60,000 nt of DNA from positions 34,784,001-34,844,000 of the forward strand of contig OZ076409.1 of the NCBI GenBank assembly GCA_964187785.1, in the 5' to 3' direction. This stretch comes from Amphiscolops sp. MND2022. Taxonomy: Eukaryota. Position numbers and translations under genes: made by a program. Shown in pieces: positions 13,401 through 52,842 of the stretch. The notes below the pieces were generated by a model that was not told the DNA's origin, did no database searches, and worked only from the letters and a program-made list of their open reading frames with translations. Position 1 is the first letter of the stretch. The number at the start of each line of letters is the position of its first letter.

Positions 13401-16400
13401 ATTGTTGATTATTTCCAGCATTTTAACTTTTCAATTGTCTTTAACTCTCAAAATGACTCACTTTAGTGTACTTCCATAGGGGATAAGTTCTGTTGGTTTG
13501 AAAAATTGTTGATTATGTCCAGCATTTTGGTTTTTTATTTTTCTTTAACTCTCAAAATGACTCACTTTAGTGTAATTCCAAAGGTGATAAGTTCTGTCGT
13601 TTCTAAAAATTGTTGAATATTTCCAGCATTTTGACTTTTCAATTGTCTTTAACTCTCAAAATGGCTTACTTTAGTGTACTTCCATAGGGGATAAGTTCTG
13701 TCGGTTTGAAAAATTGGTGATTATGTCCAGCATTTTGCTTTTTTATTTTTCTTTAACTCTCAAAATGACTCATTTAGTGTAATTCCATAGGTGATAAGTT
13801 CTGTCGTTTCTAAAAATTGTTGAATATTTCCAGCATTTTAACTTTTCAATTGTCTTTAACTCTCAAAATGGCTTACTTTAGCGTACTTCCATAGGGGATA
13901 AATTCTCTCGGTTTGAAAAATTGTTGATTATGTCTAGCATTTTAACTTTTCAAAAGTCTTTAACTCAAAATGGCTTACTTCAGTAAACTTCCATAGGGGA
14001 TAAGTTCTGTCGGTTTGAAAAATTGTTGATTAGGTCCAGCATTTTAGTTTTTTATTTGTCTTTAACTCAAAATGGCTTACTTTAGTGTACTTCTATATGG
14101 AATAAGTTCTGTCGGTTAAAAAATTTTTGATTATGTCAAGCATTTTAGGTTTTTATTTGTCTTAACTCAAAATGGCTTACTTTAGTGTACTTCCACGGGA
14201 GATAAGTTCTCTCGGTTTGAAAAATTGTTGATTATTTTCAGCATTTTAACTTTTCAAATGTCTTTAACTCTCAAAATGGCTCATTTTAGTGTACTTCCAT
14301 AGGGGATGAGTTCTCTCGGTTTGAAAAATTGTTGAGTGTCAAGCATTTTAGGTTTTTATTTGTCTTTAACTCTCAAAATAGTTTACTTCAGTATACTTCC
14401 ATAGGGGATAAGTTCTGTCGGTTTGAAAAATTGGTGATTATGTCCAGCATTTTGGTTTTTTATTTTTCTTCAACTCTCAAAATGACTCACTTTAGTGTAA
14501 TTCCATAGGTGATAAGTTCTGTCGTTTCTAAAAATTGTTGAATATTTCCAGCATTTTAACTTTTCAATTGTCTTTAACTCTCAAAATGGCTTACTTTAGC
14601 GTACTTCCATAGGGGATAAATTCTCTCGGTTTGAAAAATTGTTGATTATATCTAGCATTTTAACTTTTCAAAAGTCTTTAACTCAAAATGGCTTACTTCA
14701 GTAAACTTCCATAGGAGATAAGTTCTGTCGGTTTGAAAAATTGTTGATTAGGTCCAGCATTTTAGTTTTTTATTTGTCTTTAACTCAAAATGGCTTACTT
14801 TAGTGTACTTCTATATGGAATAAGTTCTGTCGGTTAAAAAATTGTTGATTATGTCAAGCATTTTAGGTTTTGATTTGTCTTAACTCAAAATGGCTTACTT
14901 TAGTGTACTTCCACGGGAGATAAGTTCTCTCGGTTTGAAAAATTGTTGATTATTTTCAGCATTTTAACTTTTCAAATGTCTTTAACTCTCAAAATGGCTC
15001 ATTTTAGTGTACTTCCATAGGGGATGAGTTCTGTCGGTTTGAAAAATTGTTGATGATGTCCAGCAATTTAACTTTTCAAATGTCTTTTACTCTCAAAATG
15101 GTTTACTTCAGTATTCTTCCATAGGGGATAAGTCCTCTCGGCTTGAAAATTTGTTGATTATTTCCAGCATTTTAACTTTTCAAATGTCTTTAACTCTCAA
15201 AATGGCTTATTTTAGTGTATTTACATAGGGGATAAGTTCTGTTGGTTTGAAAAATTGTTGATTATGTCCAACATTTTAGTTTTTTATTTGTCTTTAACTC
15301 TCAAAATCGTTTACTTTAGTGTACTTCTATATGGAATAAGTTCTCTCGGTTTGAAAAATTGTTGATTATTTCCAGCATTTTAACTTTTCAATTGTCTTTA
15401 ACTCTCAAAATGGCTTACTTCAGTATTCTTCCATAGGGGATCAGTCCTCTCGGTTTGAAAAATTGTTGATTATGTCCAGCAATTTAACTTTTCAAATGTC
15501 TACTCTCAAAATGGCTTACTTTAGTGTACTTCCATAGGGGATAAGTTCTCTCGGTTTGAAAAATTGTTGATTATTTCCAGCATTTTAACTTTTCAAATGT
15601 CTTTAACTCTCAAAATGGCCTATTTTAGTGTACTTCCATGGGGGATAAGTTCTGTCGGTTTGAAAAATTGTTGAATATGTCCAGCAATTTAACTTTTCAA
15701 ATGTCTAACTCTCAAAATGGCTTACTTCAGTATTCTTCCATAGGGGATAAGTCCTCTCGGTTTGAAAATTTGTTGATTATTTCCAGCATTTTAACTTTTC
15801 AAATGTCTTTAACTCTCAAAATGGCTTATTTTAGTGTATTTACATAGGGGATAAGTTCTGTCGGTTCGAAAAATTGTTGATTATGTCCAGCAATTTAACT
15901 TTTCAAATGTCTTCTCTCAAATTGGCTTACTTTAGTGTACTTCCATAGGGAATAAGTTCTCTCGGTTTGAAAAATTGTTGATTATTTCCAGCATTTTAAC
16001 TTTTCAAATGTCTTTAACTCTCAAAATGGCTTACTTCAGTATACTTCCATAGGGGATAAGTTCTGTCGGTTTCAAAATTTGTTGATTAGGTCCAGCATTT
16101 TAGTTTTTTGGTTTAAACTCTCAAAATGGCTTACTTTAGTGTACTTCCATAGGGGATAAGTTCTCTCGGTTTGAAAAATTGATTATTTCCAGCATTTTAA
16201 CTTTTCAAATGTCTTTAACTCTCAAAATCGCCTACTTTAGTGTACTTCCATAGGGGATAAGTTCTCTCGGTTTGAAAAATTGTTGAATATGTCAAGCATT
16301 TTAGCTTTTCAAATGTCTTTAACTCAAAATGGCTGACTTCAGTATACTTCCATAGGGGATAAGCTCTGTCGGTTTGAAAAATTGTTGAATATGTCCAGCA

Positions 16401-16710
16401 TTTTGGTTTTTTGTTTTTAACTCTCAAAATGACTCACTTTAGTGTACTTCCATAGGTGATAAGTTCTGTCGTTTCTAAAAGTTGTTGATTATTTCCAGCA
16501 TTTCAACTTGTCAATTGTCTTTAACTCTCAAAATGGCTTACTTTAGTGTACTTCCATAGGGGATAAGTTCTGTCGGTTTGAAAAATAATTGATTATGTCC
16601 AGCATTTTAGTTTTTATTTGTTTTTAACTCAAAATGGCTTTCCATGGGGGATAAGTTCTGAAAAATTGATTATATCCAGCATTTTAGTTTTTTTAAATGT
16701 CTAACTCTCC
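10469..16710. repeat. Satellite array, ~104-bp monomer, about 60 copies, with higher-order repeats
   Basis: Monomer about CTTCCATAGGGGATAAGTTCTCTCGGTTTGAAAAATTGTTGATTATTTCCAGCATTTTAACTTTTCAAATGTCTTTAACTCTCAAAATGGCTTACTTTAGTGTA; diagnostic variants recur at about 415, 623, 718 and 1133 bp. Confidence 0.95.
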
Positions 16711-16748
16711 AAAGGTATTCGTTTCGAGTAATTTTTTAAGGGACCTGC

Positions 16749-17194
16749 TGTAATATTCTTTGAATATTAGAAGGTATTAAATTTTGTGATTTTGTGAAGC
16801 TAATTAATAAACCCTCACTGATTAATTTGACCCCAAGTTGGAGCTATGAATATTTAATCTTAATAAAACAACCCACCCCGGAATGCAAATAGTAATTTCA
16901 AGAACAATGAAAAAGCAATAAAAATATATTACGACCCACCCTCTAAATACATACATGGGCAGTTTTTAATAAAAAATATATTGGTTAATTTCCGCATGAC
17001 AGGAAACAATAAAGTGAAGAAAATAAAACATTGATGACAATAATTTGAAGACAAGAAATTTTGGGCTTCTATTGAATAGTTGACTGTAAAGCATCGACAA
17101 TAAAATCTTTTCTGTAAAGCCTTCCTCACGCCCCGCTCTGAAGAAACCTAAAGCAAAAGAGATCTCAAAATTGGAAAACCCCAAGAATTTTACA
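16749..17194 (+). repeat. 5' LTR
   Basis: TGTAATATTC...TTTTACA; matches 27110-27555 apart from about 5 substitutions; AATAAA motifs inside. Confidence 0.97.
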
Positions 17195-17208
17195 TGGTGA
17201 CAAGGAGG
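17195..17208 (+). promoter_or_regulatory. Primer-binding site
   Basis: TGGTGACAAGGAGG directly after the LTR CA; TGG is complementary to the tRNA 3' CCA. The primer tRNA is uncertain (resembles Ser(GCT)-type PBSs). Confidence 0.75.
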
Positions 17209-17224
17209 AAGTGAGGAAAAGACA

Positions 17225-18394
17225 ATGGCAGCTGCAAACCCTCAACCACACATCACACTCAACCCATTCCGCGGAAAACCAGATGAAAATTGGCCAGATT
17301 TCGAGAGTCTACTCAGAAGCTTGATCAATGTTGGAAACATCCCAGCGGCAAACCGACCACAATTCCTGCAACTACACCTACTAGACCAAGCCCTACAATT
17401 CTTTAGAACATTACCACAAGCTACAAGAGATAACTTCGATGCAGCTATTACAGCTCTGCGCAACCACTATTGTAACCCAAATCTTCGAGAATTACACAAA
17501 CTACAACTACATAACTTGAAATTTGATCACAAAACTGGTAGCCCAGAAGACTTCCTCGTACAAGTGCAAATCAAAGCAACACAAGCCTATCCTGACCCAG
17601 TGTTTGCACCTATTCCACCAGCTAACCCACCAAATGACCAAGCTGAAATTGACAGAGTTGCAGCAACAGAAGCAGCGAATCAGACTGTTTTGGACAATGC
17701 GACAAATGAAAGAAACAGAAGGATAAAAGAAATCTTCACAAACTCAATGCCAAACTTCATTAAAAGAAAACTTTTGGATCAAAATGAAGCAGCAACAGTT
17801 CAAGACTTGTGCACTGTGGCTCGAAGGCAAATGGTGTTCTTTGAGCTGTGCCCGAGTGACGATTGGTCCAGAGACGCATTCAACGAAGTGAGTACAACGC
17901 TCTCAGAAAACTTGGTTAGTGCGTTAACTAAATTAACTCAACAACAGGATGAAATCAAACAACACCAAACTGAAATGTCAAACAGAATCAACACATTCAG
18001 CTCTCAAGACATGGGTAACCAGAATTACAACAACGACAATAATCAGAACAGAAACTCTAACTACAGAGGTAACAACAGATACAATAACTCGAGAGGATAT
18101 AGAGGAAGAGGAAACTTCAATCGAGGAAACAACAGAGGAAGAGGTAGATATAACAACAACAGAGGGTACTATGGCAACTACAACAATAACAGAGGTTACC
18201 AAAACAACTATGGTAACAACAACCCACAGCTACAACAGTCATCTAATGATGGACATATTGAAGAGACCAGTTACTCGAAAAATGTATGTTACAACTGTGG
18301 ATACCCAAACCACTACGCCAAAGATTGTATTCAACGTCAACCAGCACAGAGAAACCAGCAAATTCCATATCAAACAGCACCAAAAAACGAGTAG
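17225..18394 (+). CDS. gag: Gag polyprotein (389 aa)
   Basis: ATG ORF after the PBS; N-terminal PFRGKPDENWPDF retrotransposon-gag motif; Asn/Arg/Gly-rich region; CCHC knuckle CYNCGYPNHYAKDC. Confidence 0.93.
   Translation: MAAANPQPHITLNPFRGKPDENWPDFESLLRSLINVGNIPAANRPQFLQLHLLDQALQFFRTLPQATRDNFDAAITALRNHYCNPNLRELHKLQLHNLKFDHKTGSPEDFLVQVQIKATQAYPDPVFAPIPPANPPNDQAEIDRVAATEAANQTVLDNATNERNRRIKEIFTNSMPNFIKRKLLDQNEAATVQDLCTVARRQMVFFELCPSDDWSRDAFNEVSTTLSENLVSALTKLTQQQDEIKQHQTEMSNRINTFSSQDMGNQNYNNDNNQNRNSNYRGNNRYNNSRGYRGRGNFNRGNNRGRGRYNNNRGYYGNYNNNRGYQNNYGNNNPQLQQSSNDGHIEETSYSKNVCYNCGYPNHYAKDCIQRQPAQRNQQIPYQTAPKNE
18382..18388 (+). promoter_or_regulatory. Probable -1 programmed ribosomal frameshift site (gag-pol)
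   Basis: A AAA AAC heptamer in the X XXY YYZ register of the gag frame, one codon before the gag stop; the protease ORF is in the -1 frame. No stimulatory structure identified by eye. Confidence 0.8.
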
Positions 18395-19627
18395 AGCCAC
18401 GCCAGTATGAAGACAAAACGGAAGAAACGACACAAAGAGAGGACCACCAAATTACTGCATGCATATCCCTTGAGGGTGATATTCTATCCTATGTACCACT
18501 AAAATTTTCCTCTAAAGAAACAAGAAAAGCTCTGATTGACACTGGAGCCTGTGCAAATGCCATCAGTGAACATGACTTTGAAGACTTGAAATCTTCTTGT
18601 GGAAATATCTCGCAACTCACTACACCAAAACAGGTCAGTAAAGTGAAATTAGCTTCCGGACAACTTATACCTGTGCGTGGCCAAATAGAACTCCAATTTT
18701 CCATTGCAAATCATTCCTTTAGGGAAACATTTCTTGTCCTGCCCAATACAAACAGTATTATTTTGGGAAACCCTTTTTTCAAAAAAAAACTCTGTAGAAC
18801 TATACCCAAAAGAAAACTTGATGAAACTTCCAGACCTGACATTACAATTGAATGAAATGGACAAACTTGAGAAAACTACAAAAGCCCAGTACTCAATCAG
18901 AACGGTCGAGAAAACAACGATTGCCCCGAACCAACAAACAATTTTAAAATGCGTGTTACTCTCCAAAAATTAATTATCGGAACTTTGCGGGATAGTCGAA
19001 CCGAAAACTAGTTTCGAGGAAAAAACGGGTTTGTGCATAACCTCATCCCTTTCGAAAGTTGACTCCTCAGGTCACCTATTCATTTCTGCATTGAACCTTC
19101 AAGAAAATGAAGTCACGATACCTCGAAATTCAGACATAGCTCTTTAAATTTCTCTCACCCCAACAAGCTGAAACCTTAACACCAATTGACCCTCAATTAC
19201 TGACTTTAGCAAAATTCAAAAACCCAGATGATTTCGTCACTGAAATAAACCAATTGGTAATAGATCAAACTTTTAACTCAGAATCGCAACCTCCCAGACC
19301 TCAACCAGACTACAAAAGTTTTTGGTTCCAGACCCCTGAAACTTGTCGAAATACGGAAAAACTCCGAGGAGTGGAAAAAAGGATTTATGAGGAACTATTG
19401 AAGCTCCAAGAGTTAGATAAAATAGACCCACAAATGGACGCTAGCTACCGTGAAACATTCCTCCAAAGATTCCAATGGAAAGACTCAGTACTGAATCGAC
19501 ATCAAAAACAACAACTAGAAGAGCTACTGATTGAATTCTCGGATATATTTGCCAAACATAGATTTGACGTCGGTTATAATTCGGAAATAACAATGAAATT
19601 GACTCCTGAACATGATAAACCTGTCCA
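18388..19627 (+). pseudogene. pol: 5' part of pol: aspartic protease and linker, disrupted
   Basis: ALIDTGA and ILGNPF protease motifs. Frameshifts at the A9 run (18781-18789), at about 19143 and at about 19627, plus an in-frame TAA at 18971-18973. The segments join into one plausible polyprotein. Confidence 0.85.
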
Positions 19628-22600
19628 CGCAAAGCCCACCGACACCAATACACTTACGAGAGGAACTACAGGTTGAACTTGCACTTTTACAATATTTTGG
19701 AATTATCACCAGCCTCAACCATTCAAAATATAGCAGTCCAATTTTCGCACACCGTAAAACTAATGGAGAACTTCGAATCCTAGTAGACCTACGCCGTATC
19801 AACCATTTACTTCTTCATGATTATCACAACAATAACTTTCCAATCTCAACAATGGCAGACACAACTGCTCATTTTGCCGGAAAGAAACTGTTTTGCAAAC
19901 TTGATTGCTCTCAGGCCTACCATTGTGTACAAATGGCAGACCCACTCTCGGTACAAGTATTGGCATTCAACTTTGCTTCACGAACCCTAGCCTATCAGCG
20001 ATTAGCGAGAGGATTGAACCGATCTGTAACTGGATTCAGTGCTTTTGTGAGAAACTATTTGGAACCATGCCTCTCAGCAAATGTGTGTACACAATTCATG
20101 GACGACATCGGATGTGGAGTCGAATCACCGGAACAACTCCTACCATACCTCAGACAAATATTCCAATGTCTCAGACGCTCAGGACTCAAATTATCCCCAG
20201 AAAAGTGTGTATTTGGTTCTGAACAAGTGAGTTTTCTTGGAAATGTGATTACCAAAGAAGGCCTAAAACCAGAAAAAGAAAAAATAGAGAAATTCTTGAA
20301 AACACTGGAGATTCCAAAATCTGTTAAACAAGTAAAAAGACTGATAGGTTTCCTTCAGTTTTTCAGAAACTTCATCCCAAATTTGAATGAGCATCTCATA
20401 CCATTCTATAAACTACTGCGGAAAAATGTGGCTTTTGAAGTGACAGAAGAAATACTGGATTCGTTTGAAACCTTGAAGGAGAAACTCAAAACAACTGCAA
20501 CGCAAACACTACGATTGGCAAAACCAGGACTACAATATGTAATTTTGTGTGACGCAAGTTACCACTCGAGCGGATTCGTACTCATGATCGAAGACTATGT
20601 CAAAAATGGGAAAGGTGAAGATGTAAAGTCATACGCACCAGTCTCATTTGGATCGAAAGTCTTCAACACAGCTCAGTTGAAAATGTCAATCTACTGCAAA
20701 GAATTCCTGTCACTATATTTTGCCCTGGAAACCTTCTCACACTTCATATGGGGTAGCGAAAAACCTGTACTGATACTGACAGATAACAAGAGCCTCACAC
20801 GCTTCTTTCAAGCAAAGACAATTCCTCCAGCACTTTGGAACTATGTCGACAGAGTAACCACATTCAACATAGTAGTCGCTCATATTCCCGGAAAAACAAA
20901 CGCAGCAGCGGATTTTTTATCTCGCCTGCAAACAAACCCAAACGAAACAGTAGAATTAAAACTTACAGACCGTATTCCGGTACGCGAAATAGAGATTGAT
21001 ATTCGAGCTAAATTACCAGACAATACAATAAATGAACTGTTCTCTGAAGAATTCCCCGATAACCTACTTCAAGTGGTTGATATGAACACATTAATAACAT
21101 TGAAACAATCTGGAAACTTTGAGAATGCCTCACAACACCTAAAAGCCCTGGCAACCCAAAATGAAGAAATCCAATTGACCAGATACAAACCAGCACTCCC
21201 GATCAACGCACTACAACTACAAAACCCGATGGACAATTATCCAGAACTTGAGACATCGGTGGCAATTCTAGAAAGGGAACAACAAAATGACGCCTTACTC
21301 TCGAAGGTGACAACCTGGCTTACAAAAGGTACAGAACCACCACATAATATTTATTCATCAGGAGAAGAACAGAAATATCGGAAACAACTCCCGCGATTAA
21401 CTATAAACAATGGAATCCTTAAACGGAACTATTACGATCATGACGGTACTATCCTTTATAAACAAGTATGTGTACCCAAACACATGCTAAAAGAAATCCT
21501 CTATAGAATACATAACTCACCCACAGGAGGACATTTGGGAATAACGAGAACAATTGCCGAGTTTCGTAGACGCTTTTACTGCCCGAATTACATAGAACAA
21601 ATTGCAAGCTACATCAGAAACTGCTCAACCTGTTTACAACTCAAACTTGTCCAACCATCTCGACTCAAACCTCCGCTAAGCGAACTATCTTCAAAAACAT
21701 CCTTCCCCGGCGACATAATGCAGATCGATATTCAAGGAGCATTTCCCTCATCTCCGTATAAATATGTGCTCACAGCAATTGATGTCTTTTCCAAATACCT
21801 TTTTGCGGTACCCTTGACCACAATAAGTGCGTCATCAGTAGCTGCAGCATTGGCCTCAATTATGTTCAATCACAGCTTTATACCAAAAGAAATAATATCG
21901 GACCTTGGAACACAATTTGTCTCAGAACTTTTTAGTGAACTGACAAAGCTCCTGGAAATCAAAATTACACATGCCTCTCTTAAGCACCCACAGACAATTG
22001 GAGTAGTTGAACGATCACACGCAGCACTCACAAGAATACTCAAACTAAACAGTAATGATACGTTCACAAACTGGCATCGGTATGTACCTTTGGCGACTTT
22101 CATCCACAATACATCATACCATACTTCTATTGGATGCGCACCAACAGTACTCTTCCACGGCAGAGAACCAATGAAACCGCTGGATCTCAGATTCTACAGC
22201 ACATGTATCCAAAAGGCAGCTTTCAATTACGACTTTGTGGAATCTTTACGAGATGAAATGTTAAAGAAATTCTCCAAAACAAAAGAGAGTCTCGAAAAGT
22301 CTTTCGCACGATACCGCAGGTATTATGATCAGAAAGCACGTGCAAACCCATTACAACAACACCAGTTTTGCCTCCTACTAAACCCTAAACTGACGGAACA
22401 ATCTACCTTCAGCTCCAAATTAATACAAAAATGGCATGCACTTTATAGAGTGGAAAAAGTATTGACAGACTCTAATTATCTTATTCGCAAAACTGGAACA
22501 AACTACACACAGATTGTGCATAGAATCAGGATCAGACCTATTACACCACAATACCAAGTTGAAGACATTCCCGAAATAGACCCTGCAAATTTTAGAACGG

Positions 22601-23640
22601 ACCCATCACTGGGACATAACAGAGGAGACACAGATTACTTCGACAGAGGCTACCCATCATTACTACAAGATGACACACCTGTTGAGTCTGTTCAACCGAC
22701 AACATTTGATAGCCCAGTAAGAGTTTCAATTTCATTCGGACAGAGCAATCAGGCCCAACAACACCTACCACCACCTATACCACCAGCGATAAACCCCAAT
22801 ACCGCGAATGAGAACCACACCATAGTAGAACCGGACCATACGAGGATACGACTAACACCCCCAGTCAACCTGACTGCAGACATACCGGAAACTTCCGACA
22901 GTTCGGATGAAAACCCTGAAACAATACAACCCGTGCGCAGATCAGAAAGAATAGCCACACAACCTCAACCAAACTTTAAACTGATTGAAGCTGCGGGAAG
23001 ACAATTGAAAACCCCAAACCCCATAAAACGGACATCACAAGAAACTAAAGAAGCACGTAACTTTATTGATCTACTCAAAAACCGCAGATTAGAACGCCAG
23101 CAAATGCAATTTGTCCAAAGACCTGGATCTCAACAAGAAGGACCGAATGAAAAAAGATCACGCCCAGACATCAATGAAATATGTCAGACAAGAAACAATG
23201 TCAACATAGTCTATGACAACATCTTCTGTTCGTCCTCTAGTATGGCACACTGCGTGTCTTCGGACTTTGCAATGGGGGTAGGTATAGCCAACCAGTTTGA
23301 CAGGCTATACCCCCGAATAAAAACACAATCATCGAAGAACCTTGCTCCTGGTTCAGTTTTTGCATACTATGACAAGTATTCCCGACGATGGATATACAAC
23401 TTGGTGACGAAACGAAAATTTTTCGACAAGCCTTCAATTGCATCACTGCGTTCAAGCCTTCTACTGATGCGTGACCATGCTCAACGGTATGGAGTAGATA
23501 ATATCCGATTACCCAAACTTGGATGTGGAAGAGACAAACTCCTATGGCAACAAGTACGCAACCTCTTGATAGAAGTCTTCCAACACACGAATTTGACGAT
23601 AACCGTTTGTGTACTTCCTCACAGAGCACCCTACGCCTAA
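19612..23640 (+). CDS. pol: Pol: reverse transcriptase, RNase H, integrase and C-terminal macrodomain (uninterrupted)
   Basis: RT: LVDLRRIN, KLDCSQAY, FMDD (20095-20106). RNase H: ILCDAS, KEFL, TDNKSL, ADFLSR. Integrase: HNSPTGGH...CSTC zinc finger and D (QIDIQG), D (ISDLG), E (VERSH). The listed ATG is not the true start; Pol would be made as a Gag-Pol fusion. Confidence 0.95.
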   Translation: MINLSTQSPPTPIHLREELQVELALLQYFGIITSLNHSKYSSPIFAHRKTNGELRILVDLRRINHLLLHDYHNNNFPISTMADTTAHFAGKKLFCKLDCSQAYHCVQMADPLSVQVLAFNFASRTLAYQRLARGLNRSVTGFSAFVRNYLEPCLSANVCTQFMDDIGCGVESPEQLLPYLRQIFQCLRRSGLKLSPEKCVFGSEQVSFLGNVITKEGLKPEKEKIEKFLKTLEIPKSVKQVKRLIGFLQFFRNFIPNLNEHLIPFYKLLRKNVAFEVTEEILDSFETLKEKLKTTATQTLRLAKPGLQYVILCDASYHSSGFVLMIEDYVKNGKGEDVKSYAPVSFGSKVFNTAQLKMSIYCKEFLSLYFALETFSHFIWGSEKPVLILTDNKSLTRFFQAKTIPPALWNYVDRVTTFNIVVAHIPGKTNAAADFLSRLQTNPNETVELKLTDRIPVREIEIDIRAKLPDNTINELFSEEFPDNLLQVVDMNTLITLKQSGNFENASQHLKALATQNEEIQLTRYKPALPINALQLQNPMDNYPELETSVAILEREQQNDALLSKVTTWLTKGTEPPHNIYSSGEEQKYRKQLPRLTINNGILKRNYYDHDGTILYKQVCVPKHMLKEILYRIHNSPTGGHLGITRTIAEFRRRFYCPNYIEQIASYIRNCSTCLQLKLVQPSRLKPPLSELSSKTSFPGDIMQIDIQGAFPSSPYKYVLTAIDVFSKYLFAVPLTTISASSVAAALASIMFNHSFIPKEIISDLGTQFVSELFSELTKLLEIKITHASLKHPQTIGVVERSHAALTRILKLNSNDTFTNWHRYVPLATFIHNTSYHTSIGCAPTVLFHGREPMKPLDLRFYSTCIQKAAFNYDFVESLRDEMLKKFSKTKESLEKSFARYRRYYDQKARANPLQQHQFCLLLNPKLTEQSTFSSKLIQKWHALYRVEKVLTDSNYLIRKTGTNYTQIVHRIRIRPITPQYQVEDIPEIDPANFRTDPSLGHNRGDTDYFDRGYPSLLQDDTPVESVQPTTFDSPVRVSISFGQSNQAQQHLPPPIPPAINPNTANENHTIVEPDHTRIRLTPPVNLTADIPETSDSSDENPETIQPVRRSERIATQPQPNFKLIEAAGRQLKTPNPIKRTSQETKEARNFIDLLKNRRLERQQMQFVQRPGSQQEGPNEKRSRPDINEICQTRNNVNIVYDNIFCSSSSMAHCVSSDFAMGVGIANQFDRLYPRIKTQSSKNLAPGSVFAYYDKYSRRWIYNLVTKRKFFDKPSIASLRSSLLLMRDHAQRYGVDNIRLPKLGCGRDKLLWQQVRNLLIEVFQHTNLTITVCVLPHRAPYA
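23194..23637 (+). other. TARG1/OARD1-like (Poa1p-type) macrodomain at the Pol C-terminus
   Basis: MAHCVSSDFAMGVGIANQF...WIYNLVTK...KPS...LPKLGCGRDKLLWQQVRNLLIEVF...ITV matches the TARG1 motifs AHCIS-D--MGAGIA, IYYLITK, KPT and MPRIGCGLDRLQW. Catalytic-position Lys at 23410 and Asp at 23533. Confidence 0.9.
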
Positions 23641-23899
23641 TGACGGACCACCAACCTTCCCATACCAGACACCCGTAAGTTAACATTAACCAACACTACC
23701 AACCAACCGAATTTACCCTTGAAAACCGTGAAAAATCTATGTTCCTTCACTTTCGCAACCTGCAAAAAACCCCGGAAAACCCATGGATTGAAAAATTTCT
23801 GCAGAAAAACTTCAAGGACAGGTCCTTAGACAAGCCACTATTCGAAAAATGAGCAGAGAATAGACTATTTCGACATACGACATTCAGCATTGACCACAT

Positions 23900-24535
23900 T
23901 TTGACACTGCGAGCATAGAAAAATGACATGTTAACCATACAAAAAACACACCGATGGACACCTTAGAAGTTCATCTACAAGATTGGGTATCTATTGTCCC
24001 TTCAAAAAGCATTGCTGACCTATAAATACCCTATTTGACAAGAAAATCCTATCTGACCCTATGATAAAAATTGACAGTTTGCCACTGCGACTGAGAAAAC
24101 GAGGCAAGATGCCTACACGGAAAATACCTTGACAGACACCCCTAAATGGGTACTACACGATAGGGTGATAGAAAAAGCGCGCAAAAGCAAAATTATATAA
24201 GAAAAACTCCATACTCCCATTTACAATTTTTTTTTCGACCTCAGTAAGTTTCCACGAAAACGACAATTTTGCCACTGCGACTGGCTAAGTGGAAGCAAAC
24301 ATCAGTGCATATTGGGCTTCCCCGGATTGTCCTCCATGAGAACTACACTACAGGGTGATAGCGGATGCGCTCATCCACCAGAGAAAAAAATAAGTGTTTA
24401 AAAAAGGAAAAAAAAATCCTACATTAGCAGAAAATTCCGATTTTGCCACTGCGAACTTATGCACGGACATCATCATCAACACCAAATTTACGTCAGATAA
24501 CTAGCATGACCTAACCCCTAGCCGATAGGGCATAC
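23900..24535. repeat. Four-unit array of two conserved boxes flanking fixed-length unique spacers
   Basis: Box 1 TTTG(C/A)CACTGCGA at 23900, 24078, 24268, 24442. Box 2 CTACAAGATTGGG / CTACACGATAGGG / CTACACTACAGGG / CTAGCCGATAGGG at 23975, 24153, 24343, 24518. Spacers of 62, 62, 62 and 63 nt look unrelated. Confidence 0.8.
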
Positions 24536-24576
24536 GACAAAACACTACTAAAGTATGAAAAGGACATCACTAACCA

Positions 24577-25443
24577 TTATCTTGGCTGCACTCTTCTGCG
24601 TGCTGAAAATCGCTTCTTCGTGACCCCGGACCTCTTGTTCCTTTTACCTTGTACGACTCGGGAACGTTGGTCAGAATACCTGTTGAAAAACTTCGTCTCC
24701 ATCTTAGCGGCTTCCTCCTCTTCGTGTAAAATAGTGTGACTCAGAAGACAGTTCCAATCATTACTAGGAGTTACAGAGAGAACTAAATGCACAGTCCTTG
24801 CAGGGAAACAAACTGTATCACCGGGTTCCTGAACACAGTACGACAGATCTTTAAAACGTCCGTAGACCATATCTTCAATAAACTGTTGGAAATGACTGTC
24901 CTCGGGCCTTTTAACCAAAACTGCAGCGGACTTAGACCCGGGACTAGCGAAAACCCATAGTTTCCGCCCGCGGAGTAATGAAGCCACAATTTCTGTTGGC
25001 GGACTGTCTGCGTGAAACCCTGTCAGACAATTTCCGGTACTTAATAACAGAACAGGCTCATGAACAACTTGTAGGTCAACAATGGCACTATTGAACCAAC
25101 TGGCGATATCATTGACATTCTCTTTTGGCATGAGGGCAGTTAAAAGCCTTGTGTCAGGGAACTGCACATTCTTCTTCTCCTCACCCCAGTTCTTGAATGA
25201 ACGCAAAATTTCGCCTACCTCAGTGGAATTCAGAATAAGCGACTGTAACTCAGGCTGTTTGTATGAGCAGGCAACACCTCTAACGATGCAAGCAGTTTTG
25301 AACCTACATGCTTCGCTGAGTGATACTGCCTCCACTTCTTTACAGTGACTTTGACACAATTCTAACAACAAATTAAAATTGTCCATGTTATCTGAAAAAA
25401 GTCCATGACCATTAACGTTAAACCCATGGGCCTTCAACAACAT
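24577..25443 (-). CDS. JmjC-domain Fe(II)/2-oxoglutarate oxygenase (histone demethylase/hydroxylase-like), antisense cargo gene, 288 aa
   Basis: Intact ATG ORF. LTGFHAD gives T141, H144 and D146; LLRGRKLWVF gives K161; QEPGDTVCFPARTVHLV gives H219. The T(-3)/H/D(+2)/K(+17) spacing is the same as in KDM2/KDM7/JMJD6-type JmjC domains. Basic C-terminus KRNKRSGVTKKRFSARRR. Confidence 0.88.
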   Translation of the reverse strand: MLLKAHGFNVNGHGLFSDNMDNFNLLLELCQSHCKEVEAVSLSEACRFKTACIVRGVACSYKQPELQSLILNSTEVGEILRSFKNWGEEKKNVQFPDTRLLTALMPKENVNDIASWFNSAIVDLQVVHEPVLLLSTGNCLTGFHADSPPTEIVASLLRGRKLWVFASPGSKSAAVLVKRPEDSHFQQFIEDMVYGRFKDLSYCVQEPGDTVCFPARTVHLVLSVTPSNDWNCLLSHTILHEEEEAAKMETKFFNRYSDQRSRVVQGKRNKRSGVTKKRFSARRRVQPR

Positions 25444-25556
25444 TGTACAAAATAAAAAGGTGTCACGGGATGGATAAAGCTAACTAAACAATTAATACCA
25501 GTACAGAGGAAAGACTAGAAATAACTCTAAGTGAGCTGAGTTGCGAATCGCTGAGT

Positions 25557-25961
25557 TTACGATTGATTTACTCTGTTGCGCACAAATTTGAACAGCACCC
25601 TCCCGATTACGAAGAGAATTGAACTAGCTATGCCAATGCCGACAACGAATATTGGCCATCCACCCTGTTCTCTCATGACTTCTCTGGACTGAACTGCAGA
25701 TGAAGTAATGACACCACATTTCGGATCAACCACAGGAGAGAAACTGACTTTTTTGGAATCCACTAGGACAGTTGTTCCGTCGTTGCAACACTCCAACTCA
25801 ATATTTGAAGTCAAGGAAATCTTGTAACAATCCATGCTCTGAAAGAACTCGAACAACATTTTGGCAAAGTTCAGATTTTGGCAGAGTTCAACATTTTGGC
25901 AGATAGCCTGGCAATAAAACAACAGTAAACAAAGAGACGCCACCCACGCTTGGGTCAACAA
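25557..25961 (-). CDS. Small putative single-pass membrane protein, antisense cargo
   Basis: Cys-containing N-terminal region, hydrophobic segment WPIFVVGIGIASSILFVIG, short basic tail RVLFKFVRNRVNQS. The ORF opens on TTG just after a stop; the true start (internal ATG or a spliced exon) is unknown. Confidence 0.5.
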   Translation of the reverse strand: MLTQAWVASLCLLLFYCQAICQNVELCQNLNFAKMLFEFFQSMDCYKISLTSNIELECCNDGTTVLVDSKKVSFSPVVDPKCGVITSSAVQSREVMREQGGWPIFVVGIGIASSILFVIGRVLFKFVRNRVNQS

Positions 25962-26322
25962 AACAATTCAATTAAAATGGAAATTGAAAATTTCCGGACG
26001 AGTACATTCTAATGAGGCCAGATTATTAACCTTCAGGTTGAACAATGACAAATAATAAAACAACGTCTATTTAATAAAAATCTTCCATGGTTGCGGAAAC
26101 TATTTGCTTGAATTTAATAACCAAGACGCTGACAAGACTGCTGAAAATTTATTGATTCTACATTGGGTACCAACGACCCCATTCCTCCTGAAATTTACTT
26201 GAAATTCAGCCGGTAGCAGAAGTCACCCAAAACATTCAACATTCTGAATATTCAACAAATTCCAAAGAGCCCTAACCTACATATATGAAATGACAACTTT
26301 GACTCACAGTAATTAACCCAAA

Positions 26323-26658
26323 ATGTCTACATCACAAGGCCTGACAGTGAGAGTTACACTAGTGCCCATGAAAATCATCTTTCCGACACCTTTTAAATGG
26401 ACTCCGCCGCGACAGCTACAGCCAATCTTTATCCATACCATTCAAACTCAACAATGTGGATGCTGTGCACCCCTTTTTATTAAAGCGACAACAGAAAACA
26501 CGAGCACCTTCAGTATCATGGACATTGACGAAGAAACACCAGAATTTGAGGACCTCTTTCACTCACTCCAAACATTAACAAAGACTATGAAAGGACAACA
26601 GCCTCTGAAAAAGGAACTCCTTGACCTCTTGGACTACATGGAGATTGAGCTATCCTAA
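26323..26658 (+). CDS. Hypothetical 111-aa protein inside the retrotransposon
   Basis: ATG in good context (AAAATGT); CGCC motif; acidic, helical-looking C-terminus; no family recognised. Confidence 0.35.
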   Translation: MSTSQGLTVRVTLVPMKIIFPTPFKWTPPRQLQPIFIHTIQTQQCGCCAPLFIKATTENTSTFSIMDIDEETPEFEDLFHSLQTLTKTMKGQQPLKKELLDLLDYMEIELS

Positions 26659-26708
26659 TACTGTTAGTACAATACTTTAAAATTGTGAGACCTAGACTTC
26701 AGCCCACA

Positions 26709-27032
26709 ATGCTCTCGTTATTTATCTTTATTCACATAGCTCAGGCTACTAGCCGCCAAGGCAGTTTGGACAAGGGCAATTTATTTAAAGAAGAAACCAA
26801 AATCATGCAGATAGAAAAATTTAGTAATGTCCAATTTTTGCTCCCTATCCCACGCTTTATTGTGATGGTGGAAGATCATTATCTGGAAGAATTGGAAAAT
26901 GACGAAAAATTTCCGTGGAGAAACAACAGTTTGCTGATTCCAGAATCTCAACTAAAAGAAACACGAAACCCTGAGCCCGATGCCCCAATCTACTCACAAC
27001 TCAATAGACAACTACGAACAGGTCAAATTTGA
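26709..27032 (+). CDS. Short secreted-type ORF at the env position, possibly a truncated env-like remnant
   Basis: ATG at 26709 starts a signal-peptide-like MLSLFIFIHIAQATS; lies just upstream of the purine tract and 3' LTR; no transmembrane anchor, and too short for a functional Env. Confidence 0.35.
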   Translation: MLSLFIFIHIAQATSRQGSLDKGNLFKEETKIMQIEKFSNVQFLLPIPRFIVMVEDHYLEELENDEKFPWRNNSLLIPESQLKETRNPEPDAPIYSQLNRQLRTGQI

Positions 27033-27084
27033 AAAGAAAAAAAATACTAACTTTATCGACGTTTTGATGAACATTTTAACCGGC

Positions 27085-27109
27085 GAGTGAAAGAATCAAA
27101 GTCGGGTAG
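27085..27109 (+). promoter_or_regulatory. Polypurine-tract region
   Basis: Purine-rich GAGTGAAAGAATCAAAGTCGGGTAG immediately before the 3' LTR (imperfect). Confidence 0.55.
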
Positions 27110-27555
27110 TGTAATATTCTTTGAATATTAGAAGGTATTAAATTTTGTGATTTTGTGAAGCTAATTAATAAACCCTCACTGATTAATTTGACCCCAAGTT
27201 GGAGCTATGAATATTTAATCTTAATAAAACAACCCACCCCGGAATGCAAATAGTAATTTCACGAACAATGAAAAAGCAATAAAAATATATTACGACCCAC
27301 CCTCTAAATACATACATGGGCAGTTTTTAATAAAAAATATATTGGTTAATTTCCGCATGACAGGAAACAATAAAGTGAAGAAAATAAAACATTGATGACA
27401 ATAATTTGAAGACAAGAAATTTTGGGCTTCTATTGAATAGTTGACTGTAAAGCATCGACAATAAAATCTTTTCTGTAAAGCCTTCCTCACGCCCCGCTCT
27501 GAAGAAACCTAAAGCAAAAGAGATCTCAAAATTGGAAAACTCCTAAACTTTTACA
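27110..27555 (+). repeat. 3' LTR
   Basis: 446-bp copy of the 5' LTR, followed by TSD CCTGC. Confidence 0.97.
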
Positions 27556-28245
27556 CCTGCTATGTTCGATTGAAAAAATATCGCTTATTTGCGGCATTTT
27601 GATGAATAGTTTGTCTTTGTCCTATAAAATGGTTTTGTTTAGTATTTTTCAGTTTTTATTGATTATTCTTTCGGTTCCTTGTGCAAATTTTGTCTTCCTC
27701 TGATTTGCTATTTGGTAATTTCACTACTCCCATGATGTAGACACACAATGTACTGGGTAAGACGGGCCTAACCCAGCCTGCACAGTACGAGTGTCTACTG
27801 GGTTCTTAGTATTGGTTGACCTCTCTTGAAGCAGGTAGACCGTTACAGCTCTACTCTTCAAGAATCGGGTTGAGGTTAACCCTAGACTCCAGTAGACACT
27901 CAAAATCTCTTGCACAAGTACTGATTCGATTCGATTCCAATCTTCACTTTTCTTCCCTCTTCGATTTAAATACCTCTACACTGACTATATGGCGGTATCA
28001 CATGTAAATTGTACAATTTCTCTACGTGGTATGGAATTACTGCAATAATGTTTTAATCAATTGTTCTTGAAATTAACTAGCTTGCTCCGTCATTATTTTT
28101 TACTTTTGCTGACTTCTCTTTTGTCTTGGAAATAGTTTTTCTGGCTAATGTTTTTTTGCTTCTGAAAGGGTATAAAAGCAGAAATAGTCGTGTGCCCCGG
28201 AGGGGCCTATTTTCAAATGAGGTAGAAACTGTACAAACTCTGTAC

Positions 28246-30510
28246 TTTTTATTTTTCTTTAACTCTCAAAATGACTCACTTTAGTGTAATTCCATAGGTG
28301 ATAAGTTCTGTCGTTTCTAAAAATTGTTGAATATTTCCAGCATTTTAACTTTTCAATTGTCTTTAACTCTCAAAATGGCTTACTTTAGCGTACTTCCATA
28401 GGGGATAAATTCTCTCGGTTTGAAAAATTGTTGATTATATCTAGCATTTTAACTTTTCAAAAGTCTTTAACTCAAAATGGCTTACTTCAGTAAACTTCCA
28501 TAGGGGATAAGTTCTGTCGGTTTGAAAAATTGTTGATTAGGTCCAGCATTTTAGTTTTTTATTTGTCTTTAACTCAAAATGGCTTACTTTAGTGTACTTC
28601 TATATGGAATAAGTTCTGTCGGTTAAAAAATTGTTGATTATGTCAAGCATTTTAGGTTTTTATTTGTCTTAACTCAAAATGGCTTACTTTAGTGTACTTC
28701 CACGGGAGATAAGTTCTCTCGGTTTGAAAAATTGTTGATTATTTTCAGCATTTTAACTTTTCAAATGTCTTTAACTCTCAAAATGGCTCATTTTAGTGTA
28801 CTTCCATAGGGGATGAGTTCTGTCGGTTTGAAAAATTGTTGATGATGTCCAGCAATTTAACTTTTCAAATGTCTTTTACTCTCAAAATGGTTCACTTCAG
28901 TATTCTTCCATAGGGGATAAGTCCTCTCGGCTTGAAAATTTGTTGATTATTTCCAGCATTTTAACTTTTCAAATGTCTTTAACTCTCAAAATGGCTTATT
29001 TTAGTGTATTTACATAGGGGATAAGTTCTGTTGGTTTGAAAAATTGTTGATTATGTCCAACATTTTAGTTTCTTTGTCTTTAACTCTCAAAATCGTTTAC
29101 TTTAGTGTACTTCTATATGGAATAAGTTCTCTCGGTTTGAAAAATTGTTGATTATTTCCAGCATTTTAACTTTTCAATTGTCTTTAACTCTCAAAATGGC
29201 TTACTTCAGTATTCTTCCATAGGGGATAAGTCCTCTCGGTTTGAAAAATTGTTGATTATGTCCAGCAATTTAACTTTTCAAATGTCTTCTACTCTCAAAA
29301 TGGCTTACTTTAGTGTACTTCCATAGGGGATAAGTTCTCTCGGTTTGAAAAATTGTTGATTATTTCCAGCATTTTAACTTTTCAAATGTCTTTAACTCTC
29401 AAAATGGCCTATTTTAGTGTACTTCCATGGGGGATAAGTTCTGTCGGTTTGAAAAATTGTTGAATATGTCCAGCAATTTAACTTTTCAAATGTCTAACTC
29501 TCAAAATGGCTTACTTCAGTATTCTTCCATAGGGGATAAGTCCTCTCGGTTTGAAAATTTGTTGATTATTTCCAGCATTTTAACTTTTCAAATGTCTTTA
29601 ACTCTCAAAATGGCTTATTTTAGTGTATTTACATAGGGGATAAGTTCTGTCGGTTCGAAAAATTGTTGATTATGTCCAGCAATTTAACTTTTCAAATGTC
29701 TTCTACTCTCAAATTGGCTTACTTTAGTGTACTTCCATAGGGGATAAGTTCTCTCGGTTTGAAAAATTGTTGATTATTTCCAGCATTTTAACTTTTCAAA
29801 TGTCTTTAACTCTCAAAATGACCTATTTTAGTGTACTTCCATGGGGGATAAGTTCTGTCGGTTTGAAAAATTGTTGAATATGTCCAGCAATTTAAGTTTT
29901 CAAATGTCTTTAACTCTCAAAATGGCTTACTTCAGTATACTTCCATAGGGGATAAGTTCTGTCGGTTTCAAAATTTGTTGATTAGGTCCAGCATTTTAGT
30001 TTTTTGGTTTAAACTCAAAATGGCTTACTTTAGTGTACTTCCATAGGGGATAAGTTCTCTCGGTTTGAAAAATTGTTGAATATGTCAAGCATTTTAGCTT
30101 TTCAAATGTCTTTAACTCAAAATGGCTGACTTCAGTATACTTCCATAGGGGATAAGCTCTGTCGGTTTGAAAAATTGTTGAATATGTCCAGCATTTTGGT
30201 TTTTTGTTTTTAACTCTCAAAATGACTCACTTTAGTGTACTTCCATAGGTGATAAGTTCTGTCGTTTCTAAAAGTTGTTGATTATTTCCAGCATTTCAAC
30301 TTTTCAATTGATTTTAACTCTCAAAATGGCTTACTTTAGTGTACTTCCATAGGGGATAAGTTCTGTCGGTTTGAAAAATAATTGATTATGTCCAGCATTT
30401 TAGTTTTTATTTGTTTTTAACTCAAAATGGCTTTCCATGGGGGATAAGTTCTGAAAAATTGATTATATCCAGCATTTTAGTTTTTTTAATGTCTAACTCT
30501 CCAAAGGTAT
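28246..30510. repeat. Second block of the ~104-bp satellite (about 22 monomers)
   Basis: Same monomer as 10469-16710. Confidence 0.95.
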
Positions 30511-31221
30511 TCGTTTCGAGTAATTTTTTAAGGGACCTGCTATGTTCGATTGAAAAAATATCGCTTATTTGCGGCATTTTGATGAATAGTTTGTCCTTGT
30601 CTTATAAAATGGTTTTGTTTAGTATTTTTCAGTTTTTATTGATTATTCTCTCGGTTCCTTGTGCAAATTTTGTCTTCCTCTGATTTGCTATTTGGTAATT
30701 TCACTACTCCCATGATGTAGACACACAATGTACTGGGTAAGACGGGCCTAACCCAGCCTGCACAGTACGAGTGTCTACTGGGTTCTTAGTATTGGTTGAC
30801 CTCTCTTGAAGCAGGTAGACCGTTACAGCTCTACACTTCAAGAATCGGGTTGAGGTTAACCCTAGACTCCAGTAGACACTCAAAATCTCTTGCACAAGTA
30901 CTGATTCGATTCGATTCCAATCTTCACTTTTCTTCCCTCTTCGATTTAAATACCTCTACACTGACTATATGGCGGTATCACATGTAAATTGTACAATTTC
31001 TCTACGTGGTATGGAATTACTGCAATAATGTTTTAATCAATTGTTCTTGAAATTAACTAGCTTGCTCCTTCATTATTTTTTACTTTTGCTGACTTCTCTT
31101 TTGTCTTGGAAATAGTTTTTCTGGCTAATGTTTTTTTGCTTCTGAAAGGGTATAAAAGCAGAAATAATCGTGTGCCCCCGGAGGGGCCTATTTTCAAATG
31201 AGGTAGAATCTGTACAAACTC
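28246..31221 (+). repeat. Segmental duplicate of ~14456-16748 plus 27561-28240, lacking the retrotransposon
   Basis: Largely the same order of satellite variants, then AGGGACCTGCTATGTTCG with a single CCTGC (30536-30540), then the ~680-bp unique tail duplicated almost exactly. Confidence 0.92.
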
Positions 31222-51900: not shown

Positions 51901-52842
51901 ATAGGAAGCAATAACAGACAAGAATAGTTCGGAGAGCATCCTGATAAGACACCCTCCATGAGACATGCTCCCACATGGGATCGTACAAGAAAAATCGAAC
52001 ATTGCGAAAAATTGAAGTAGGGAAGATTTCATGCCAAAAATTCTTTTTAACCACTAAAAGAGTCAAAAAGTGAAGGGGAGAGCCCTTGATGAAAACACTT
52101 ACTAACTTATGAAAAAAACCGGAAGTGCCAAAATTTGCAAAATTACGCAAAGGGTATCCTTTTATGCTGGAAATACGGTTTTTCAGGAACTAAAAGCTTT
52201 TTTAAAAACCAAAAAGGGGACTCCCAAGAAATTGAAAAATAATTGACTGTAAACTTTTACAGTGCAGAAAACATCTCAATTGCCAAAAAACTTTGCAATC
52301 AAAAATGAAAAGAATTGCGCCAGAATTAAAATGTTTCGTTTTACTGTTTCTGGCTCACTGAAAACATCATAATGTTTAAAAAACATAGGCGCGACAGCAG
52401 AAACGTTCAATGGTCTGAAGAAGGTGCTACAAAATGAGTATATCCCAAGGCATAAAACCCAGTGAACATATCTAGTTCCAGATCACGATATTTCGATGAA
52501 GAACTAAAAGGAATGAATTTTTTTGAGAAAATGAAAAAAATGTATTTTTGGCAGAAACGCGAAGGCGCCATTCTTCATGACGAAAACTTTGATAGCACAA
52601 AAAGTAGCCTATATGCTCGCCTGAACTTTGTGAGGAAGAATGGTTTTCGTATCTATTTCCAGTTCTGCTATATTTTGGAAAAATCAGCTACATTTTGGAA
52701 AAATGGAAAAAAATTCAGAAAAAATTATTCATTACTTTATTTGCTGAAAAAAAGCAGAGCGAAAAAAGTTTCGACGTCACGTTTAGCCTAGAACGTAGCC
52801 TACATAAGCTTCGTAAAATTAACGAAAGCTTGAATCCGATAT
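45911..52842. repeat. Tandem array of ~1021-1025-bp units (about 6.8 copies, highly identical)
   Basis: Units start at about 45911, 46936, 47960, 48984, 50005, 51026 and 52051; the same short ORFs recur at this period. Confidence 0.97.

What the first reader, a model, noticed from the sequence alone, without database searches (positions are those of the whole stretch)
23194..23640. TARG1/OARD1-type macrodomain fused to the integrase C-terminus
Seen: in-frame macrodomain after a long Pro/Ser/Gln-rich linker, with the residues equivalent to TARG1 Lys84 and Asp125 retained. Known: TARG1 removes ADP-ribose from acidic protein residues and from thymidine in DNA (as bacterial DarG does); viral macrodomains counter PARP defences; this position in Pol is where chromoviruses carry a targeting chromodomain. 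Inference: it either targets integration to ADP-ribosylated chromatin or protects cDNA and integration intermediates from ADP-ribosylation. Macrodomains have been noted in some retroelements, so the domain alone may not be new.
Basis: partly seen in the sequence, partly recalled or inferred. Interest (0 to 1): 0.7.

Follow-up and report, generated by a model that had tools for sequence, protein, structure and literature searches.

The report
Jumping gene carrying an ADP-ribose eraser
A recently inserted Gypsy-type retrotransposon carries, at the tail of its integrase, a copy of the enzyme domain that cells use to strip ADP-ribose marks from proteins, DNA and RNA, and a whole group of related elements has kept it, which hints that these marks are a host defence against jumping genes.

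Summary
Confirmed. Positions 23194-23640 encode a TARG1/OARD1-type macrodomain (E 2e-23 to human TARG1), in frame at the C-terminus of the RT-RNaseH-integrase ORF of a young 10.8-kb Ty3/Gypsy element (LTRs 98.9% identical, 5-bp target duplication, empty paralogous site 3 kb away). The Lys84/Asp125 equivalents are kept, and so are basic residues at TARG1's three RNA-binding positions. The fusion is not a one-off: 17 of 33 rows of the surrounding integrase clade carry it, 9 with the catalytic pair, 6 full-length without it, 2 cut short; 16 end before it. Unrelated retroelement proteins carry the same domain at four other Pol positions. That favours a packaged eraser that clears ADP-ribose from the element's RNA, cDNA or proteins (about 0.5) over chromodomain-like targeting (about 0.2). 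Neither was tested. This copy's protease-RT interval is broken. Macrodomains are on record in fish endogenous retroviruses; I found no paper on this Gypsy fusion in ten searches. New variant of a known kind.

The parts
16744..16748 (+). 5' copy of the 5-bp target-site duplication (CCTGC)
   Evidence: second copy at 27556-27560; single copy at the empty paralogous site 30536-30540
16749..17194 (+). 5' LTR, 446 bp, TG...CA
   Evidence: 98.9% identical to the 3' LTR, 5 mismatches
17195..17208 (+). primer-binding-site-like TGG tract directly after the LTR; primer tRNA not identified
   Evidence: sequence
17225..18394 (+). gag, 389 aa from the ATG, one CCHC knuckle
18382..18388 (+). A AAA AAC heptamer just before the gag stop; protease frame is -1 to gag (programmed frameshift inferred from general knowledge of LTR elements)
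   Evidence: sequence
18262..18855 (+). aspartic protease frame
   Evidence: Pfam Asp_protease_2 E 1.6e-5
18719..19676 (+). protease-RT interval, split over separate reading frames in this copy (breaks near 18720-18860, 19140 and 19630) where relatives P0002 and P0207 are continuous
   Evidence: tblastn
19603..23640 (+). pol ORF: RT (FMDD at 20095), RNase H, integrase HHCC and DDE core, C-terminal integrase motif, linker, macrodomain
   Evidence: best PDB hit Ty3 Gag-Pol E 1e-55
22630..23193 (+). low-conservation Pro/Arg/Gln-rich linker
   Evidence: 0 of 151 columns invariant among 8 Pol proteins
23194..23640 (+). TARG1/OARD1-type macrodomain, C-terminal in Pol; K1270 at 23410-23412, D1311 at 23533-23535
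23900..24454 (+). four copies of a 13-nt motif spaced 178, 190 and 174 nt apart, between the converging pol and JmjC stops; role unexplained
   Evidence: 4 matches against 0.03 expected; longer shared units
24577..25479 (-). antisense JmjC-type Fe(II)/2-oxoglutarate dioxygenase ORF (300 aa stop to stop; relatives start at the Met near 25386); H156, D158, K173, H231 kept
25557..25967 (-). 136-aa frame that reads like a small type I membrane protein (hydrophobic start, Cys-rich part, one hydrophobic segment, basic tail); no upstream ATG in frame; gene status uncertain
   Evidence: no family
26323..26658 (+). 111-aa ORF of no known family, multicopy (13 cluster members)
26709..27032 (+). 107-aa ORF of no known family, multicopy (6 cluster members)
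27110..27555 (+). 3' LTR, preceded by a purine-rich tract
27556..27560 (+). 3' copy of the target-site duplication

Best explanation
The element makes a TARG1-type ADP-ribosyl hydrolase as the last domain of Pol, so that one copy is packaged with every integrase (packaging inferred). Inside the particle and at the integration site it removes single ADP-ribose units that host PARPs put on the element's single-stranded RNA or cDNA (uracil, thymine or guanine-N1 bases) or on acidic residues of its proteins. Such marks block copying, so removing them raises transposition. It works like a viral macrodomain or bacterial DarG: a counter-defence or sanitising enzyme, not an address label. Shown: fusion, family, catalytic residues, clade-wide retention. 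Inferred: enzyme activity, substrate, the host mark, the benefit.
For: Lys84 and Asp125 are TARG1's catalytic pair (PMC9411070, passages) and both are kept. TARG1 needs K50, R86 and R126 for RNA binding and for uracil-ADPr hydrolysis but not for protein substrates (bioRxiv 10.64898/2026.03.31.715305, section 7); the window has R, K, K there and a net charge of +10 over the last 158 aa. TARG1 clears thymidine-ADPr (PMC8501950, passages) and PARP1-made DNA-ADPr on single-stranded DNA (PMC11102865, abstract); the activity extends to fly and bacterial relatives (PMC13036486, passages). Among 8 Pol proteins mean identity is 0.68 in integrase, 0.28 in the linker, 0.43 in the macrodomain, with 19 of 139 against 0 of 151 invariant columns (these 8 were chosen for having the K/D pair, so K/D invariance itself is circular). 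In listed members of two multicopy families every copy that reaches the C-terminus keeps K and D: 5 of 5 and 7 of 7 (14 members listed of 121 and of 61). The same domain type, K and D kept, lies before protease (P0064), after protease (P0051), after RNase H (P0123), after an integrase zinc finger (P0109, P0156) and after integrase (P0127) in other retroelement proteins: it need not ride on integrase.
Against: No activity was measured and no host mark on this element is known. 6 of 15 full-length domains in the clade lack the K/D pair, several in multicopy families (clusters of 41, 20, 25, 9, 12 and 1 members), so catalysis is dispensable in those lineages. The three basic positions are not kept throughout: P0002 has A, L, G and P0001 has C, Q, Q. 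16 of 33 clade rows end before the domain; 13 of the 16 end inside the integrase or linker of a macro-bearing relative, several within 30 aa of the domain start, and 3 have no matching tail; without their DNA I cannot tell decay from true loss. The large outgroup families (clusters of up to 1547 members) have no macrodomain. Expression is not shown.
Confidence: 0.5

Rival explanations
1. Targeting reader: the domain stays on integrase and binds ADP-ribosylated chromatin or DNA ends (repair sites, lagging strands, satellites, telomeres), steering insertion as the chromodomain does in chromoviruses.
For: It sits at the integrase C-terminus after a flexible linker in 17 clade rows. Chromatin readers are often fused to transposon domains (bioRxiv 10.1101/2021.11.30.470311, passages). 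Six full-length domains without the K/D pair, and three more degenerate ones outside the clade (P0247, P0260, P0261), persist in open frames, as a binding-only module would. This copy sits at the edge of a 104-bp satellite array.
Against: An active hydrolase removes the mark it binds, and this copy keeps the catalytic pair. The domain occurs at four Pol positions away from the integrase tail in other elements. The domains without K/D have also lost much of the ligand-pocket motif, so they may not bind ADP-ribose. One insertion shows no bias.
Confidence: 0.2
2. Chromatin or repair tuning after insertion: the hydrolase acts on host proteins (Asp/Glu-ADPr on PARP1, histones, repair factors) at the new junction, easing gap repair or delaying silencing, possibly together with the JmjC protein.
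For: TARG1-type enzymes cleave ADPr from Asp/Glu (PMC8120803, passages). Cellular hits fuse the same domain to DNA ligase, ligase-3 BRCT and polynucleotide kinase-phosphatase domains, a single-strand-break repair setting. The element also encodes a JmjC-type protein with its iron ligands.
Against: No substrate data. The JmjC ORF appears limited to the window's subfamily whereas the macrodomain is clade-wide, so the two are not an obligate pair. This reading and the best one differ only in substrate and are not exclusive.
Confidence: 0.2
3. Passenger: a host OARD1 cDNA was captured once and is decaying slowly without benefit.
For: 16 of 33 clade rows end before the domain and 6 have lost the catalytic pair. 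Related large families do without it.
Against: Open frame and pocket residues are kept among families whose integrases are 58-68% identical and whose linkers are barely alignable. The tail domains group together in their own tree (12 rows, SH-aLRT 94) in line with long co-descent.
Confidence: 0.1

Closest known systems
Human TARG1/OARD1/C6orf130 (PDB 2l8r, 4j5r, 4j5s)
   Same: Best sequence (E 2e-23) and fold match; Lys/Asp pair and three basic RNA-binding positions kept.
   Different: TARG1 is a stand-alone 152-aa cellular enzyme; this domain is the tail of a retrotransposon Pol, and its activity is untested.
DarG antitoxin macrodomain (DarTG)
   Same: Same ALC1/TARG1-like class, catalytic lysine kept; E 1e-5 to 4e-5.
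   Different: DarG lacks the Asp of the pair; no ADP-ribosyltransferase partner was found in this element.
Macrodomain ORFs of teleost epsilon-like endogenous retroviruses (Basta et al. 2009, as cited in PMC4977317)
   Same: A reverse-transcribing element that carries a macrodomain.
   Different: Those are Retroviridae; the review speaks of additional ORFs. I could not read the original, so their class and position are unknown to me. Here the element is Ty3/Gypsy and the domain is fused behind integrase.
Chromoviruses (Ty3/Gypsy with an integrase C-terminal chromodomain, e.g. MAGGY)
   Same: Extra domain at the integrase C-terminus (MAGGY chromodomain targets H3K9me).
   Different: No chromodomain in the window or in 26 scanned relatives; the domain here has an enzyme's active site.
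Coronavirus and alphavirus macrodomains (Mac1, nsP3)
   Same: Virus-borne ADP-ribose erasers that counter PARPs (listing and abstract start).
   Different: They are MacroD-type; they rank far below TARG1 (13-18% identity) and do not use the Lys/Asp pair.
Retroelement dUTPase (recalled, plus Pfam hits in relatives P0231 and P0290)
   Same: A captured housekeeping enzyme placed at varying positions in Pol to keep the cDNA clean (positions recalled, not from a call).
   Different: Different chemistry; the analogy is mine.

Membership tests
TARG1/OARD1-type macrodomain | Closest sequence and fold relative is TARG1, ahead of MacroD, PARG, macroH2A or DarG | tested here: met
   phmmer E 2e-23 against 1e-5 for DarG; Foldseek ranks 1-8 all TARG1, from a weak single-sequence model, pLDDT 49
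TARG1/OARD1-type macrodomain | Catalytic Lys84 and Asp125 | tested here: met
   K1270 and D1311
TARG1/OARD1-type macrodomain | Basic surface K50/R86/R126 for nucleic-acid substrates | tested here: met
   R, K, K in the window; variable in relatives
TARG1/OARD1-type macrodomain | Hydrolyses Asp/Glu-, thymidine- and uracil-linked ADP-ribose | not testable with these tools
   needs an assay
Pfam Macro (PF01661) | Score at or above the gathering cut-off of 22 bits | tested here: not met
   19.7 bits, E 8e-4; many clear TARG1-type relatives also miss it, so this reflects the model's bias
Ty3/Gypsy LTR retrotransposon | LTRs with TG...CA ends, target duplication, gag, and Pol order PR-RT-RH-IN | tested here: met
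   best PDB hit Ty3
Ty3/Gypsy LTR retrotransposon | Named clade within Ty3/Gypsy | not tested
   no named reference elements were among the 120 hits
Chromovirus | Chromodomain at the integrase C-terminus | tested here: not met
   no Chromo hit
Autonomous, intact element (this copy) | Continuous PR-RT-RH-IN frame | tested here: not met
   three breaks in the protease-RT interval; real or assembly error not determined
JmjC dioxygenase (antisense ORF) | HxD...H iron triad and the 2-oxoglutarate lysine in a JmjC profile match | tested here: met
   H156, D158, K173, H231 at 90% or more of 15 rows (role of the lysine recalled); 14 of 15 members match PF02373 at E <= 0.05, best 1.4e-5, window 20.6 bits under the cut-off of 24; Atlas 0.95
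JmjC histone demethylase (antisense ORF) | Assignment to a KDM subfamily or histone substrate | tested here: inconclusive
   no PDB hit with the profile; model unusable, pLDDT 37; no reader domain seen

The most novel reading that the evidence does not exclude
ADP-ribosylation of retrotransposon RNA or cDNA bases is an unrecognised host defence in eukaryotes, the counterpart of DarT anti-phage defence, and this Gypsy clade answers it with a TARG1 eraser bolted to integrase. The window's subfamily has added a second, antisense-encoded eraser (a JmjC dioxygenase, swapped as a cassette between near-identical backbones), giving one mobile element two enzymes that remove host marks, while sister lineages have turned the macrodomain into a non-catalytic module.
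Probability: 0.25. Interest if true: 0.85.

Novelty: new variant of a known kind. Interest (0 to 1): 0.6.

Why it matters
Base-linked ADP-ribosylation of DNA and RNA in animals is newly described and its purpose is open. A successful retrotransposon clade that keeps the one enzyme type known to remove these marks is indirect evidence that the marks are aimed at mobile nucleic acids. The clade supplies a natural series (catalytic pair kept, lost, or domain absent) of small, easily expressed domains, so the eraser-or-reader question can be settled on the bench. A transposon-borne JmjC enzyme in an LTR element would be a second, separate novelty.

Tried and rejected
No whole genome is held for the window, so copy number and insertion bias could not be measured. 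No sequencing run was listed; this says nothing on expression. Scans for DNA context found no JmjC relative in viral or metagenome contigs and no Pol relative in viral contigs; the Pol alignment found 3 loci, of which only L002 was long enough to examine: it is an outgroup element with neither domain. Exact look-ups of the window's Pol, Gag, protease and membrane-like frames found nothing (7 of 10 queries), so the window's own sisters were seen only through fragments (P0027, 58 aa, 98% identical to the end of the macrodomain) and the 3' ORFs. The JmjC structure model was unusable and was not searched. Independent capture of macrodomains by different retroelements looked likely from the free tree but was not established: holding all 19 retroelement domains together was not rejected (p-AU 0.18), and joining P0127 to the tail group gave a better tree. 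Rfam found nothing in the element. The Atlas gave only weak leads for the membrane-like frame (0.80). Earlier findings of the scan: nothing. Chance ORF and opposite-strand artefact were rejected for both the macrodomain and the JmjC ORF: each has many diverged, in-frame relatives and the opposite strand of the JmjC region holds only frames under 100 aa.

Full report
1. Observation. The longest ORF of the window, 19603-23640 (+), encodes RT, RNase H, the integrase zinc finger and core, and ends in a macrodomain. Against solved structures the last 156 aa match human C6orf130/OARD1/TARG1 at E 2e-23 over nearly the whole chain, and DarG at 1e-5 to 4e-5. Pfam Macro matches below its cut-off (19.7 of 22 bits). 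A single-sequence model is weak (pLDDT 49) but Foldseek still ranks TARG1 chains first to eighth. K1270 and D1311 align with Lys84 and Asp125, TARG1's catalytic pair (PMC9411070, passages).

2. The element. It spans 16749-27555 (10,807 bp), with 446-bp LTRs that differ at 5 positions, and a CCTGC target duplication. An empty copy of the same junction with one CCTGC lies at 30536-30540, so this is a true and recent insertion, at the edge of a 104-bp satellite array. Gag (17225-18394) has one CCHC knuckle; the protease lies in the -1 frame behind an A AAA AAC heptamer. Domain order and the best PDB hit (Ty3, E 1e-55) place it in Ty3/Gypsy; the clade was not named. Relative to intact relatives the protease-RT interval of this copy is split over separate frames, with breaks near 18720-18860, 19140 and 19630; whether they are real or assembly errors is open. 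The host was not determined; no genome is held, and a eukaryote, probably an animal, is my inference from the satellites and the relatives.

3. Relatives. A search with the integrase region listed the best 120 of 150 hits. I screened all 120 and the window with a profile of 152 TARG1-type domains and built an integrase tree on 71 rows, leaving out short matches, P0222 and all but 8 of the distant group; the careful search did not finish and the quick tree is used. The window falls in a 33-row clade (SH-aLRT 100). Of these 33, 9 have a full domain with K and D (window, P0001, P0002, P0206, P0207, P0208, P0210, P0212, P0226), 6 a full-length domain without the pair (P0205, P0211, P0215, P0216, P0221, P0225), 2 a domain cut short (P0217, P0320), and 16 end before it. 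Of the 16, 13 end within the integrase or linker of a macro-bearing relative, some just short of the domain, and 3 have no matching tail. Many are probably damaged copies (P0209 is 98% identical to P0002), but loss in some families, such as the 153-member cluster of P0220, is not excluded. Outside the clade P0244 has part of a domain and P0247, P0260, P0261 degenerate ones; the distant group has none. Several macro-bearing families are large (clusters of 47-121 members), and among listed members all copies that reach the C-terminus keep K and D (5 of 5, 7 of 7). Across 8 Pol proteins chosen for having the pair, identity is 0.68 in integrase, 0.28 in the linker and 0.43 in the macrodomain.

4. 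Other retroelements. The library search found 3303 relatives at E <= 0.001 and listed 150. I scanned the 61 longer ones with Pfam: 6 carry retroelement domains, with the macrodomain before protease (P0064, a beetle record), after protease (P0051), after RNase H (P0123), after an integrase zinc finger (P0109, P0156) or after integrase in another lineage (P0127). In a 62-row tree the tail domains of this clade group together (12 rows, SH-aLRT 94) apart from these, but a single origin of all 19 retroelement domains was not rejected (p-AU 0.18). So varied position is shown; repeated capture is not.

5. Second cargo. Between pol and the 3' LTR lie 3.5 kb with an antisense ORF, 24577-25479. It has 15 related clusters at 51-100% identity, 14 of 15 aligned members match Pfam JmjC weakly, the Atlas agrees at 0.95, and H156, D158, K173 and H231 are kept in 90% or more of rows. 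Its own cluster has 8 members on 8 contigs. Equal length is indirect and does not show that both lie in one element. The JmjC cargo thus seems confined to the window's subfamily. Its substrate is unknown.

6. Mechanism. TARG1 removes ADP-ribose from Asp/Glu (PMC8120803, passages), from thymidine (PMC8501950, passages), from PARP1-modified single-stranded telomeric DNA (PMC11102865, abstract) and from uracil and guanine-N1 in RNA (bioRxiv 10.64898/2026.03.31.715305, abstract and section 7; PMC13036486, passages). For RNA it needs K50, R86 and R126; the window has R, K, K. A retrotransposon passes through single-stranded RNA and DNA (established knowledge). I therefore favour a packaged eraser that protects these intermediates or the element's proteins (0.5). 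Rivals: a targeting reader (0.2), action on host proteins at the insertion site (0.2), a passenger (0.1). Against the best reading: 6 of 15 full-length domains have lost the pair, the basic positions vary, large outgroup families lack the domain, and nothing was assayed.

7. What is known. Ten full-text searches were run, seven of them on macrodomain, TARG1 or OARD1 with retroelement terms and one on JmjC with transposon terms. The only precedent found is macrodomain ORFs in fish endogenous retroviruses (PMC4977317, passage, citing Basta et al. 2009, which is not held). Term searches found no macrodomain or JmjC cargo in PMC13524379, PMC6431247 or PMC6338049 (first of four parts read and term search); bioRxiv 10.64898/2026.07.25.740670 (passages) and PMC10499221 (reference line) added nothing on the fusion. 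BioRxiv 10.1101/2021.11.30.470311 (passages) lists 823 chromatin-transposon fusions in a supplement that I could not see and that may hold JmjC or macro cases. The library lacks most subscription papers, and Repbase, Dfam and GyDB were out of reach; one database record already names P0127 as an integrase/O-acetyl-ADP-ribose deacetylase fusion. The fusion is thus visible to automatic annotation but, as far as I could search, undescribed.

8. Verdict. Real, clade-wide and testable: a new variant of a known kind (retroelements with captured accessory enzymes). Interest 0.6; 0.85 if ADP-ribosylation of retrotransposon nucleic acid proves to be a host defence (probability about 0.25).

Noticed in passing
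window 24577-25479 (-): Antisense JmjC-type ORF inside the element; 15 related clusters at 51-100% identity. 4 of the 10 nearest macrodomain or Pol relatives share a contig length with a JmjC relative, against 0 of 119 more distant Pol proteins.
   Followed up: partly
window 26323-26658 (+) and 24577-25479 (-): The 111-aa ORF cluster (90% or more alike) lies on contigs whose lengths match both JmjC types, which are only 65% identical to each other: possible cassette exchange between near-identical backbones.
   Followed up: partly
window 17180-17187 and 27541-27548: 4 of the 5 LTR mismatches fall within 8 bp at the LTR end, more like recombination between variants than age.
   Followed up: no
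window 23900-24454: Four copies of a 13-nt motif about 180 nt apart in the non-coding stretch after pol. A similar word appears in the consensus of a 126-nt tandem repeat at 3283-3561.
   Followed up: partly
window 25557-25967 (-): Frame resembling a small type I membrane protein, upstream of the JmjC ORF on the same strand; no family.
   Followed up: partly
window 10469-16640, 28256-30433, 27556-28240, 30536-31221: 104-bp satellite with a 415-bp higher-order period, alternating with a 685-bp unit present twice at 98.8% identity; the element inserted at the satellite/unit junction and the second junction is empty.
   Followed up: yes
window 46574-52028 (-): Six 112-aa frames about 1.02 kb apart, suggesting a kilobase-period tandem array.
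   Followed up: no
proteins P0102, P0105, P0158, P0044, P0077, P0087: Cellular TARG1-type domains fused to DNA ligase, ligase-3 BRCT, polynucleotide kinase-phosphatase and NADAR domains.
   Followed up: no
proteins P0229, P0231, P0237, P0239, P0255: A neighbouring group of Pol proteins ends in a different shared C-terminal motif with no Pfam match.
   Followed up: no
L002:1-2292: Outgroup Gypsy Pol ending without a macrodomain, followed by about 7 kb of extra sequence and a second gag-like frame at 9535.
   Followed up: no
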